DNA of 32,000 nucleotides, taken from the NCBI GenBank assembly GCA_965247685.1, contig OZ252021.1, positions 540,001 to 572,000 of the forward strand, given 5' to 3'. The DNA is from Bdellovibrionales bacterium (GTDB lineage Bacteria > Bdellovibrionota > Bdellovibrionia > Bdellovibrionales > UBA1609). Below are positions 25,518 to 25,913 of this stretch, one piece after another. The position numbers were made by a program, and so were the translations under genes. Each line of letters starts with the position of its first letter. Within the stretch, counting starts at the first letter, position 1. Below the pieces are notes generated by a model. That model was not told the DNA's origin, searched no databases, and worked only from the letters and a program-made list of their open reading frames with translations.

Positions 25518-25913
25518 TAGTGTTCTTTTAGTGTTCTTTTAGTGTTCTTTTAGTGTTCTTTTAGTGTTCTTTTAGTGTTCTTTTAGTGTTCTTTTAGTGT
25601 TCTTTTAGTGTTCTTTTAGTGTTCTTTTAGTGTTCTTTTAGTGTTCTTTTAGTGTTCTTTTAGTGTTCTTTTAGTGTTCTTTTAGTGTTCTTTTAGTGTT
25701 CTTTTAGTGTTCTTTTAGTGTTCTTTTAGTGTTCTTTTAGTGTTCTTTTAGTGTTCTTTTAGTGTTCTTTTAGTGTTCTTTTAGTGTTCTTTTAGTGTTC
25801 TTTTAGTGTTCTTTTAGTGTTCTTTTAGTGTTCTTTTAGTGTTCTTTTAGTGTTCTTTTAGTGTTCTTTTAGTGTTCTTTTAGTGTTCTTTTAGTGTTCT
25901 TTTAGTGTTTTTA
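25518..25913. repeat. 11-bp microsatellite (TAGTGTTCTTT) x 36: 35 perfect units and 1 degenerate
   Basis: The single A of the unit recurs at 25519 + 11n up to 25904, with no interruption in any line. The other cassettes have a single copy of the motif (aattaattCAGTGTTCTTTttgtg) at the same place. The array ends 6 nt before the RBS (AAGGAG) of the copy 5 ankyrin gene. Confidence 0.95.

What the first reader, a model, noticed from the sequence alone, without database searches (positions are those of the whole stretch)
25518..25913. Perfect 11-bp x 36 microsatellite directly upstream of the RBS of ankyrin copy 5
TAGTGTTCTTT is repeated 35 times without a single mismatch, plus one degenerate unit. 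It expands a motif that is single-copy at the homologous leader position of the other four cassettes. It ends 6 nt before the AAGGAG Shine-Dalgarno.

The unit contains TAG. Because 11 is not a multiple of 3, all three plus-strand frames are closed. The minus strand is closed by TAA. The array is therefore non-coding.

Two features stand out:
- Perfection over 385 bp implies very recent or ongoing slippage. Unit-number changes would alter the promoter-to-RBS distance or the 5'-UTR length, as in a classical phase-variation or rheostat mechanism.
- The period (11 bp) is close to the helical repeat, and each unit carries a T4 tract. The 36 phased T-tracts should produce strongly intrinsically curved DNA, a known target for nucleoid-associated silencers and a modulator of promoter activity.

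As RNA it would add a ~390-nt U-rich leader.
Basis: partly seen in the sequence, partly recalled or inferred. Interest (0 to 1): 0.78.

Follow-up and report, generated by a model that had tools for sequence, protein, structure and literature searches.

The report
Perfect 11-bp repeat array before ankyrin gene
A flawless 35-copy run of an 11-base unit sits in the untranslated leader of one of five tandem secreted-ankyrin genes in a small-genome Bdellovibrionales-like bacterium; it is a recent replication-slippage expansion that probably changes length easily and may tune that gene's expression, but with only one genome available this cannot be shown.

Summary
TAGTGTTCTTT occurs 35 times without a mismatch (25518-25902). 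One hybrid unit follows (25903-25913), and the array ends one base before the AAGGAG Shine-Dalgarno of ank5, whose ATG is at 25927.

The array grew from an older, degenerate 11-bp proto-repeat at the same leader site. Cassettes 1, 3 and 4 carry three units there, cassette 2 carries two, and cassette 5 carries 36. The nearest paralogue differs by 1.5-4.7% in the flanks, yet the array has 0 changes in 385 bp. It is therefore young or constantly homogenised.

It is non-coding, unstructured as RNA or ssDNA, and matches no Rfam family. Calibrated wedge models predict local curvature 2-3 times the window background. That curvature is superhelical rather than planar, and it is generic to 11-bp arrays of this composition.

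No promoter could be placed. RBS occlusion does not scale with unit number. No second strain exists in any collection searched, so variability and function are untested.

The closest known parallels are the H. influenzae hmw1A/hmw2A 7-bp 5'-UTR rheostat and neutral VNTRs of reduced intracellular genomes.

Verdict: a new member of a known kind, of moderate interest.

The parts
25518..25902 (+). 35 perfect tandem copies of TAGTGTTCTTT (385 bp)
   Evidence: TRF 100% match. The string equals the unit x35, with 35 exact pattern hits.
25903..25913 (+). 36th, hybrid unit TAGTGTTTTTA. It combines the 5' part of ancestral unit 1 with the 3' part of ancestral unit 2, and is identical to the first unit of cassette 2's leader.
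   Evidence: Register view of the five leaders.
25915..25920 (+). Shine-Dalgarno AAGGAG of ank5. The ATG is at 25927.
   Evidence: The same element is conserved in four of the five leaders and mutated to ATGGAGG in cassette 2.
25327..25517 (+). Conserved leader upstream of the array. It holds weak promoter candidates: a -10-like TATAAA at 25415-25420, shared by all five leaders, and TTGATT-N17-CACACT at 25435-25463, which reads TACACT in cassettes 3 and 4 and is absent from cassette 2. It also holds a small hairpin at 25477-25494.
   Evidence: Leader alignment. The promoter scan lists no + strand site here, so the candidates were read by eye and are inferred only. The hairpin appears.
25927..26976 (+). 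ank5: a 349-aa protein with an N-terminal signal peptide, ankyrin repeats, a Cys-rich C-terminal domain and a basic KKRKTRGV tail.
   Evidence: ORF. Pfam Ank families, E down to 2e-51. The C-terminal domain family has 42 members in 1.84 billion representatives.
26973..27260 (+). Small exported-looking ORF (94/95 aa). It overlaps the ank5 stop and is the second gene of each cassette.
   Evidence: ORF. It is 96.2-99.3% identical in DNA among the five cassettes. A homologue with 58% identity lies downstream of an Ank gene in an unrelated metagenome contig, L084.
18518..18550 (+). Cassette 1 proto-repeat: TAGTGCTCTTT | TTTTGTTTTTA | ATGTATTTTTG, directly before AAAGGAGG.
20163..20184 (+). Cassette 2 proto-repeat with only two units: TAGTGTTTTTA | ATGTATTTTTA. 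It is one unit shorter than in cassettes 1, 3 and 4.
21999..22031 (+). Cassette 3 proto-repeat: CAGTGTTCTTT | TTGTGTTTTTA | ATGTATTTTTG.
23633..23665 (+). Cassette 4 proto-repeat, identical to that of cassette 3.
   Evidence: The leaders of cassettes 3 and 4 are 100% identical.

Best explanation
The array is a recently expanded, slippage-prone tandem repeat (VNTR with an 11-bp unit) in the untranslated leader of ank5.

**Origin (shown).** The ancestral leader already carried three degenerate 11-bp units immediately upstream of the Shine-Dalgarno. In-register replication slippage amplified unit 1 to 35 identical copies, fused it to unit 2, and deleted unit 3. The same site lost one unit in cassette 2.

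**Consequence (inferred).** The array adds about 374 nt of unstructured, U-rich, untranslatable RNA between the conserved leader (or the upstream cistron) and the ank5 RBS. Such a long ribosome-free leader most likely lowers ank5 and small-ORF expression through reduced transcript yield or stability. Gains or losses of units would shift that level gradually, as a rheostat rather than an ON/OFF switch. This is the behaviour of the 7-bp repeat in the 5' UTR of H. influenzae hmw1A/hmw2A.

**Open question.** Whether this tuning is selected or merely tolerated is unknown.
For: **Anatomy**
- The array is perfect, 35 units plus 1 hybrid unit.
- The five paralogous leaders show 2, 3, 3, 3 and 36 units at the same site, in the same 11-bp register.

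**Age**
- The array has 0/385 substitutions.
- Cassettes 4 and 5 differ by 2/127 in the leader, 5/288 in the small ORF, 2/130 at the ORF 5' end and 14/300 in the C-terminal domain.

**A dynamic locus**
- Leaders 3 and 4 are 100% identical and contain a copied 3' end of mnmG.
- ank4 is split.
- Ankyrin-repeat numbers differ among cassettes.

**Position and properties**
- The array lies downstream of all conserved leader sequence and ends 1-5 nt before the SD.
- There are no ORFs and no Rfam family.
- The RNA is less structured than shuffles (z = +4.2). ssDNA MFE is 0 on both strands.

**The downstream module looks functional**
- ank5 and the small ORF are intact.
- Both belong to a module conserved elsewhere.
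- The product has a signal peptide and ankyrin repeats, consistent with a host-interaction protein.

**Precedent**
- The hmw1A/hmw2A ATCTTTC repeats number 9-28, lie in the 5' UTR of the P2 transcript, and vary inversely with mRNA and protein (PMC2424069, PMC8262952).
- UspA2 has 6-23 AGAT repeats in its 5' UTR (summarised in PMC4679880).
Against: - **No evidence of length variation.** The source genome is a single 1,280,446-bp contig. Each of the 4 single-copy and ank proteins found by the look-up (the split ank4 C-terminal fragment, MnmG, Ank5, DnaA and Ank3) is alone in its 90% cluster, and the small-ORF cluster holds only this contig's own copies. Metagenome scans for the leader and for the array found nothing.
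- **No promoter located.** The consensus scan finds none on the + strand of this leader. Whether the array is transcribed as 5' UTR, as an intercistronic spacer, or lies upstream of a cryptic start is inferred.
- **RBS accessibility does not scale with length.** Modelled opening energy rises from 6.3 to 8.3 kcal/mol by n = 3 and is then flat to n = 50. This particular mechanism gives no rheostat.
- **Poor Rho substrate.** The unit has 9% C and 18% G.
- **Opposite effect is possible.** U-rich leaders can also enhance translation via ribosomal protein S1 (own knowledge), so even the sign of the effect is uncertain.
- **No recurrence.** No repeat array precedes the related Ank genes in L084.
Confidence: 0.55

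Rival explanations
1. Neutral by-product. The array is a selectively irrelevant slippage expansion in a small, fast-decaying, host-associated genome. It resembles the intergenic VNTRs of Ehrlichia ruminantium and Wolbachia. Alternatively, it is a first step in silencing a redundant paralogue.
For: - The genome is a 1.28-Mb contig. Its closest relatives are small Bdellovibrionales MAGs.
- The locus is visibly unstable: ank4 is split, cassette 2's leader has a ~55-nt deletion and an altered SD, and mnmG fragments are duplicated.
- Five redundant paralogues relax constraint on any one of them.
- Lead 5 carries T>C at the first base of the TACACT -10 candidate.
- No array precedes the related genes in L084, and relatives L001-L003 have none at the syntenic site.
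- Intergenic VNTRs alongside variable ANK genes are documented in Wolbachia (PMC3287509, which cites Collins 2005 for E. ruminantium).
Against: - The ank5 ORF, its SD and the small ORF are all intact.
- The expansion stopped exactly at the SD without damaging it.
- A 385-bp insertion in a leader is unlikely to have no effect on expression.
Confidence: 0.3
2. DNA-level structural element. The 36 phased T-tracts form intrinsically curved DNA that recruits a nucleoid-associated silencer. Alternatively, the array acts as an iteron or centromere-like protein-binding array near oriC/parAB.
For: - Predicted local curvature is 11.8-18.0 degrees per turn, against a window background of 4.8-7.3 and maxima of 7.3-11.6. 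This holds in three models calibrated on A4T4/T4A4.
- The window contains dnaA and parAB.
- ParR of plasmid R1 binds 11-bp direct repeats (PMC9426499).
Against: - The curvature is generic. 32-41% of arrays built from shuffled units are at least as curved.
- The path is a right-handed superhelix, not a planar bend.
- No parM/parR-like or other DNA-binding gene is adjacent.
- The unit occurs nowhere else in the window except in the paralogous leaders.
- The array is demonstrably derived by slippage from a leader motif.
Confidence: 0.08
3. Assembly or consensus artefact. The array, or its exact unit count, was produced by the assembler or polisher.
For: A perfect 394-bp repeat cannot be counted by short reads. 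The count in a metagenome-derived consensus may hide heterogeneity. Reads were not available for checking.
Against: - The contig is 1.28 Mb and spans five near-identical 1.6-2.2-kb cassettes. That implies long, accurate reads.
- The flanks join seamlessly to the paralogous leader and to the SD, in the correct 11-bp register.
- Artefacts rarely produce an error-free 35-unit array with a biologically sensible hybrid end unit.
Confidence: 0.04
4. Promoter array. Each unit carries a TAnnnT hexamer (TAGTGT), so the array offers 36 weak -10-like sites. The last units would drive a short-leader ank5 transcript, or would act as an RNA polymerase sink.
For: TAGTGT of unit 35 (25892-25897) lies about 18 nt upstream of the SD. 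The ancestral leaders have TAATGT at a similar distance.
Against: - No unit phase gives more than 2/6 matches to a -35 hexamer.
- There is no TG extension.
- The consensus scan reports no site in the array.
Confidence: 0.03

Closest known systems
hmw1A/hmw2A heptanucleotide (ATCTTTC)n repeat of non-typeable Haemophilus influenzae (PMC2424069, PMC8262952)
   Same: - A perfect, T-rich, non-coding tandem repeat between an upstream promoter and the start codon.
- It is carried in the 5' UTR.
- It occurs in paralogous loci for exported host-interaction proteins.
- It has tens of copies (9-28).
- It works as a graded rather than ON/OFF control. The mechanism (transcription or mRNA stability) is still unresolved there too.
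   Different: - The unit is 7 bp rather than 11 bp.
- Variation and its effect on expression are demonstrated experimentally there, and here not at all.
- There the repeat overlaps the -10 of P2 and the -35 of P1. Here no promoter is mapped, and the array abuts the SD.
- Here only one of five paralogues carries the expansion.
UspA2 AGAT 5'-UTR repeat of Moraxella catarrhalis (Attia and Hansen 2006, as summarised in PMC4679880)
   Same: A tandem repeat inside the 5' UTR of a surface-protein mRNA. Copy number modulates the level of expression.
   Different: The unit is 4 bp with 6-23 copies. There is an optimum at 18 copies, so the relationship is not monotonic. The effect is experimentally shown.
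TAACTGA heptamer arrays upstream of start codons in Beggiatoaceae, Cyanobacteria and Bacteroidetes (PMC4679880)
   Same: Perfect short-unit direct repeats ending within a few nucleotides of the RBS or start codon. Arrays reach up to 43 copies, and a post-transcriptional role has been proposed.
   Different: That is a genome-wide motif at many genes, suggesting a dedicated binding factor. Here the array is a single locus, with a unit that derives from the local leader.
Intergenic VNTRs of reduced intracellular bacteria (Wolbachia VNTR-105/141; Ehrlichia ruminantium) (PMC3287509 and Collins 2005 cited therein)
   Same: A small host-associated genome with expansion and contraction of intergenic tandem repeats. 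These coexist with length-variable ankyrin genes and have no demonstrated function.
   Different: Those units are mostly much longer (about 100 bp) and imperfect. Here the unit is 11 bp, the array is perfect, and it is positioned exactly at an RBS.
Phased A-tract curved DNA / ~11-bp A-tract periodicity of bacterial genomes (own knowledge: Hagerman 1986; Koo, Wu and Crothers 1986; Herzel, Trifonov, Tolstorukov)
   Same: T4 tracts recur once per 11 bp. Predicted curvature is well above background, and a period longer than 10.5 bp gives a right-handed superhelical path.
   Different: The tracts are only 4 nt long. The curvature is a generic consequence of the period. No experimental mobility data exist.

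Membership tests
SSR contingency locus (5'-UTR/promoter rheostat, HMW1/2 type) | Perfect tandem simple-sequence repeat within the promoter or 5' leader of the controlled gene | tested here: met
   35 perfect units at 25518-25902, ending just before the SD of ank5.
SSR contingency locus (5'-UTR/promoter rheostat, HMW1/2 type) | Controlled gene encodes a surface or secreted host-interaction factor | tested here: met
   Signal-peptide-like N-terminus plus ankyrin repeats. The role in host interaction is inferred, not shown.
SSR contingency locus (5'-UTR/promoter rheostat, HMW1/2 type) | Unit number varies within or between populations at high frequency | not testable with these tools
   Only one genome exists: the look-up found no protein from any other contig in the 90% clusters, and there are no metagenome hits. 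The only indirect evidence is 2/3/3/3/36 units among the paralogous leaders.
SSR contingency locus (5'-UTR/promoter rheostat, HMW1/2 type) | Expression level depends on unit number | not testable with these tools
   In silico only. RBS opening energy is flat for n of 3 or more.
SSR contingency locus (5'-UTR/promoter rheostat, HMW1/2 type) | Repeat lies between a mapped promoter and the start codon | tested here: inconclusive
   No consensus promoter is found on the + strand of the leader. There are only weak by-eye candidates upstream of the array.
Spacer-length phase variation (-35/-10 spacing switch) | Repeat tract forms the spacer between the -35 and -10 hexamers | tested here: not met
   The array is 385 bp long, and no hexamer pair flanks it at 16-18 bp.
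Intrinsically curved DNA (phased A/T tracts) | A/T tracts of 4 nt or more repeated near the helical period, with predicted curvature above background | tested here: met
   11.8-18.0 degrees per turn against a background of 4.8-7.3, in three models. The implementation was calibrated on A4T4/T4A4. However, 32-41% of shuffled-unit arrays do as well.
Intrinsically curved DNA (phased A/T tracts) | Anomalous gel mobility or planar bend | not testable with these tools
   The model predicts a right-handed superhelix (twist 374-389 degrees per unit, end-to-end/contour 0.60-0.85), not a planar arc.
ParR/parC-type centromere or iteron array | Direct repeats of about 10-11 bp adjacent to genes for the cognate adaptor and motor (parR/parM) or a Rep protein | tested here: not met
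   Neighbours are the ank gene and the small ORF, with no DNA-binding or actin-like domains. The chromosomal parAB genes lie 4 kb away and are of the ParA/ParB type.
CRISPR array | Repeats separated by unique spacers | tested here: not met
   Units are contiguous, with start-to-start spacing of 11 bp.
Structured cis-regulatory RNA (riboswitch or leader) | Match to a known family, or stable conserved structure | tested here: not met
   No Rfam hit at gathering score or at E of 1 or less. The leader folds worse than shuffles (z = +4.2).

The most novel reading that the evidence does not exclude
An obligate host-associated Bdellovibrionota-like symbiont uses a helical-period (11-bp) hypermutable leader repeat as a contingency device. 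The device would individually dial one member of a tandem family of secreted, NLS-tailed ankyrin effectors up or down. It could act through 5'-UTR length, through superhelically curved DNA, or through both. This would be stochastic effector-repertoire choice in a reduced-genome endosymbiont, where SSR-based phase variation is essentially undescribed.
Probability: 0.15. Interest if true: 0.65.

Novelty: new member of a known kind. Interest (0 to 1): 0.38.

Why it matters
If the unit number varies and sets ank5 expression, this would extend SSR-based contingency regulation in two ways. So far it is known almost only from cultivable mucosal pathogens with 1-7-bp units. This case would add an uncultured, small-genome symbiont and an 11-bp unit. 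It would also give a simple PCR-sizable marker of within-host population dynamics.

If the array is neutral, it is still a clean natural snapshot of how a degenerate proto-repeat next to an RBS seeds a runaway expansion. It would also serve as a ready-made VNTR marker for this lineage.

Tried and rejected
1. **Exact-protein look-ups to find other assemblies.** Ank5, MnmG, the small ORF and P0001 all returned 'not on record'. The cluster look-up found no protein from any other contig in their 90% clusters.

2. **Genome-contig scan.** The scan with the Ank C-terminal domain found no relative. The scan with MnmG found only relatives at 70% identity or less, which lack the cassettes and have mnmE and mnmG adjacent.

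3. **Metagenome-contig scans.** Scans for a degenerate leader pattern and for three array units both returned 0 hits.

4. **Horizontal link to a giant virus.** The identical unit occurs x6.9 in IMG/VR contig L081. However, 1 of 4 composition-matched control units also hits giant-virus MAGs. Chance explains the match, so the link is rejected.

5. **First curvature script.** One search gave low curvature (7.7 degrees per turn). It used the wrong handedness for the wedge direction and fails the Hagerman A4T4/T4A4 test. It is discarded in favour.

6. **RBS occlusion as a length-dependent rheostat.** The unit's UUCUUUU can pair with the AAAAGGA of the SD. Rejected, because the opening energy saturates at n = 3.

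7. **Hairpin or slipped-strand structure as the driver of instability.** ssDNA MFE is 0 on both strands.

8. **Rfam.** No family matched.

9. **Recurrence of leader repeats in the wider protein family.** The word-index protein search returned only Ank-free fragments. It missed paralogues known to be in the collection. The one contig retrievable, L084, has an Ank gene cluster and the small-ORF homologue, but no leader arrays.

Full report
**1. Observation**

The region 25516-25909 is a period-11 tandem array of 35.8 copies, with 100% matches and no indels. Window 25518-25902 is exactly TAGTGTTCTTT x35. A pattern search gives 35 exact hits, against 1.7 expected by chance for hits with up to 1 mismatch. 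A 36th unit, TAGTGTTTTTA (25903-25913), follows. Next come AAGGAG (25915-25920) and the ATG of a 349-aa ORF at 25927. No ORF of 20 aa or more overlaps the array on either strand.

**2. Context**

The window is the replication-origin neighbourhood of a low-GC (~35%) bacterium. Its gene order is:
- gyrA, gyrB, recF, dnaN and dnaA on the minus strand;
- yidC, an R3H/Jag protein and mnmE on the plus strand;
- five tandem two-gene cassettes (18564-27260);
- mnmG on the minus strand, then parA and parB.

Each cassette encodes two proteins. The first has a signal-peptide-like N-terminus, ankyrin repeats, a Cys-rich C-terminal domain and a basic KKRKTRGV tail. The second is a 94/95-aa ORF whose start overlaps the first gene's stop.

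The source is a single 1,280,446-bp contig in NCBI/ENA. The look-up found none of its proteins in a 90% cluster with a protein from any other contig. The closest MnmG sequences, at ~70% identity, come from three 'Bdellovibrionales bacterium' MAGs. In L001, mnmE and mnmG are adjacent and co-oriented with nothing between them. None of the three syntenic loci holds a tandem array. The cassettes are therefore lineage-specific.

The C-terminal domain defines a rare family. It has 42 members among 1.84 billion representatives, including this genome's own copies. Every distant member inspected that carries an N-terminal region has ankyrin repeats there. A distant metagenome contig, L084, also has a same-strand cluster of such Ank genes plus a homologue of the small ORF with 58% identity. 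The two-gene module is therefore real and conserved.

**3. Origin of the array**

After a shared AATTAATT, the five leaders line up in a common 11-bp register:

| Cassette | Units at the site |
|---|---|
| 1, 3, 4 | three degenerate units: [T/C]AGTG[C/T]TCTTT, TT[T/G]TGTTTTTA, ATGTATTTTTG |
| 2 | two units; the first (TAGTGTTTTTA) is a unit1/unit2 hybrid |
| 5 | 35 perfect copies of unit 1, then the same hybrid unit; unit 3 is missing |

All differences are whole-unit, in-register changes. This is the signature of replication slippage or unequal exchange at a pre-existing proto-repeat.

The nearest paralogue, cassette 4, differs from cassette 5 as follows:
- 2/127 in the leader;
- 5/288 in the small ORF;
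- 2/130 at the 5' end of the ORF;
- 14/300 in the C-terminal domain.

The array has 0/385 changes. At the per-lineage divergence implied by these figures, about 3-9 substitutions would be expected in 385 bp. The array is therefore either younger than the cassette 4/5 split or continuously homogenised.

The locus is generally unstable:
- Leaders 3 and 4 are 100% identical and include a ~165-nt copy of the 3' end of mnmG.
- ank4 is split into two ORFs.
- Leader 2 has a ~55-nt deletion and an altered SD.
- Ankyrin-repeat numbers differ among cassettes.

**4. Physical properties**

As single-stranded DNA, neither strand forms any structure (MFE 0). As RNA, the leader folds worse than dinucleotide shuffles (z = +4.2). 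Its centroid shows only a small upstream hairpin and a local SD/U7 hairpin that all paralogues can form. No Rfam family matches. The consensus scan finds no promoter in the + strand leader or in the array, and no + strand terminator. The promoter candidates listed under 'parts' were read by eye and are weak.

Modelled cost of opening the SD-to-AUG segment is as follows:

| Leader | Opening energy (kcal/mol) |
|---|---|
| n = 0 units | 6.3 |
| n of 3 or more, flat to n = 50 | 8.3 |
| paralogue leaders | 6.6-7.7 |

RBS occlusion therefore cannot give length-dependent control.

*Curvature.* My first script used a mirror-image wedge direction. It fails the experimentally known contrast in which (GAAAATTTTC)n is curved and (GTTTTAAAAC)n is straight, so I discarded it. 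The model parameter tables were recalled from memory. The calibrated implementation gives the following, in degrees per helical turn:

| Model | Array | Window background (mean +/- sd) | Background max | A6N4 control |
|---|---|---|---|---|
| Bolshoy | 18.0 | 7.3 +/- 1.2 | 11.6 | 27.6 |
| De Santis | 15.7 | 5.8 +/- 0.9 | 9.1 | 24.3 |
| A-tract-only | 11.8 | 4.75 +/- 0.8 | 7.3 | 19.4 |

Two points qualify this result. First, arrays built from shuffled units average 11.1-15.3, and 32-41% of them equal or exceed the real unit. Second, twist per unit is 374-389 degrees, so the path is a right-handed superhelix with an end-to-end/contour ratio of 0.60-0.85. The array is predicted to be markedly curved. 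That curvature is a generic by-product of an ~11-bp period rather than a designed feature.

**5. Comparative evidence for variability or function**

None could be obtained. No other strain or read set is reachable. The related Ank cluster in L084 has no leader arrays.

The same unit occurs x6.9 in a giant-virus-like IMG/VR contig. However, one of four composition-matched control units also hits giant-virus MAGs. This match is compatible with chance.

**6. Interpretation**

Three things are shown:
- The array is a genuine, very recent or actively homogenised slippage expansion.
- It grew from a leader proto-repeat.
- It lies between all conserved leader sequence and the RBS of an intact gene pair.

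Two further things are inferred. First, perfect arrays of this length are highly slippage-prone, so unit number probably varies in the population. Second, ~374 extra nucleotides of ribosome-free, U-rich leader or intercistronic RNA probably reduce ank5 and small-ORF expression in a graded, length-dependent way.

The best-documented parallel is the ATCTTTC repeat in the 5' UTR of the hmw1A/hmw2A P2 transcript. There, 9-28 copies relate inversely to mRNA and protein, and the molecular mechanism is still unresolved (PMC2424069, PMC8262952). UspA2 (AGAT)n and the TAACTGA arrays are further parallels (PMC4679880).

The main rival is that the array is a neutral or mildly deleterious by-product in a decaying multi-copy locus of a reduced genome. 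Wolbachia and Ehrlichia VNTRs are the model for that reading (PMC3287509). DNA-structural or protein-binding roles, cryptic promoters and assembly artefact are less likely, for the reasons given under the rival explanations.

**7. Verdict**

The slippage origin, the non-coding status, the leader position and the predicted curvature hold. Phase variation or rheostat function is plausible but untested, and classical spacer-type phase variation is excluded.

This is a new member of a known kind: an SSR/VNTR in a 5' leader. It is notable for its length, its perfection, its 11-bp unit and its setting upstream of a secreted ankyrin protein in an uncultured small-genome Bdellovibrionales-like bacterium.

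Noticed in passing
window 21687-21852 and 23321-23486 (approximate): Leaders of cassettes 3 and 4 each contain a ~165-nt copy (about 90% identical) of the 3' end of mnmG (real gene 27298-29214, minus strand). 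The tandem duplication unit therefore once included the end of mnmG. Segments 21600-21899 and 23234-23533 are 100% identical, which indicates a very recent duplication or gene conversion.
   Followed up: partly
window 23679-25042: The ankyrin gene of cassette 4 is split into a 331-aa ankyrin part (23679-24674) and a 108-aa C-terminal-domain ORF (24716-25042), so it is a probable pseudogene. It also contains a 57-bp x3, 98%-identical repeat (24066-24234) that encodes truncated 19-aa ankyrin units.
   Followed up: partly
window 20026-20198: The leader of cassette 2 lacks ~55 nt present in the others, including the TTGATT-N17-TACACT promoter candidate. Its SD reads AAATGGAGG, which creates an upstream in-frame ATG (the ORF is listed from 20186).
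   Followed up: no
window 26650-26976 and equivalents; P0012-P0050: The Cys-rich C-terminal domain of the Ank proteins is absent from Pfam. It defines a rare family of 42 representatives in 1.84 billion. Most of the full-length members read begin with a hydrophobic signal-peptide-like segment, and most members read end in a Ser-rich tail with a terminal ...(K/R/Q)GVR motif. The window copies instead carry an SV40-like basic KKRKTRGV tail, which may be a host nuclear-localisation signal.
   Followed up: partly
L084:7419-20041 (ENA ERZ25067939 contig_25): An unrelated ~35% GC metagenome contig carries a same-strand cluster of about six Ank genes of this family. It also carries a homologue of the 95-aa small ORF (58% identity) downstream of one of them. 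The Ank plus small-ORF module is therefore conserved beyond this genome.
   Followed up: partly
L081:285-360 (IMGVR_UViG_3300037328_000056): A giant-virus-like contig carries the same 11-mer (TTAGTGTTCTT x6.9, perfect) just 3' of what looks by eye like a tRNA gene (not checked with the tRNA finder), preceded by the unit's reverse complement. One of four composition-matched control units also hits giant-virus MAGs (L082, L083), so the match is compatible with chance.
   Followed up: yes
window 16927-29214 versus L001:8548-11896: In L001, the relative whose ORFs were listed, mnmE and mnmG are adjacent and co-oriented. In the window, mnmG is inverted and separated from mnmE by the 8.9-kb cassette array. 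No rsmG-like gene was recognised between mnmG and parA.
   Followed up: partly
window 10000-14300: The cumulative GC skew has its minimum at about 11-12 kb, next to dnaN/dnaA. oriC is therefore probably in this window, and the ankyrin cassettes and the array lie on the leading strand of the right replichore, about 12 kb from the origin.
   Followed up: no
tool behaviour (versus 24, 64): The word-index protein search returned only ankyrin-free fragments. It missed the full-length paralogues (such as P0003 and P0010) that are demonstrably in the collection. The exhaustive HMMER search did find full-length copies (P0010, P0011). Negative results from the word-index search for ankyrin-containing proteins should not be trusted.
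   Followed up: yes
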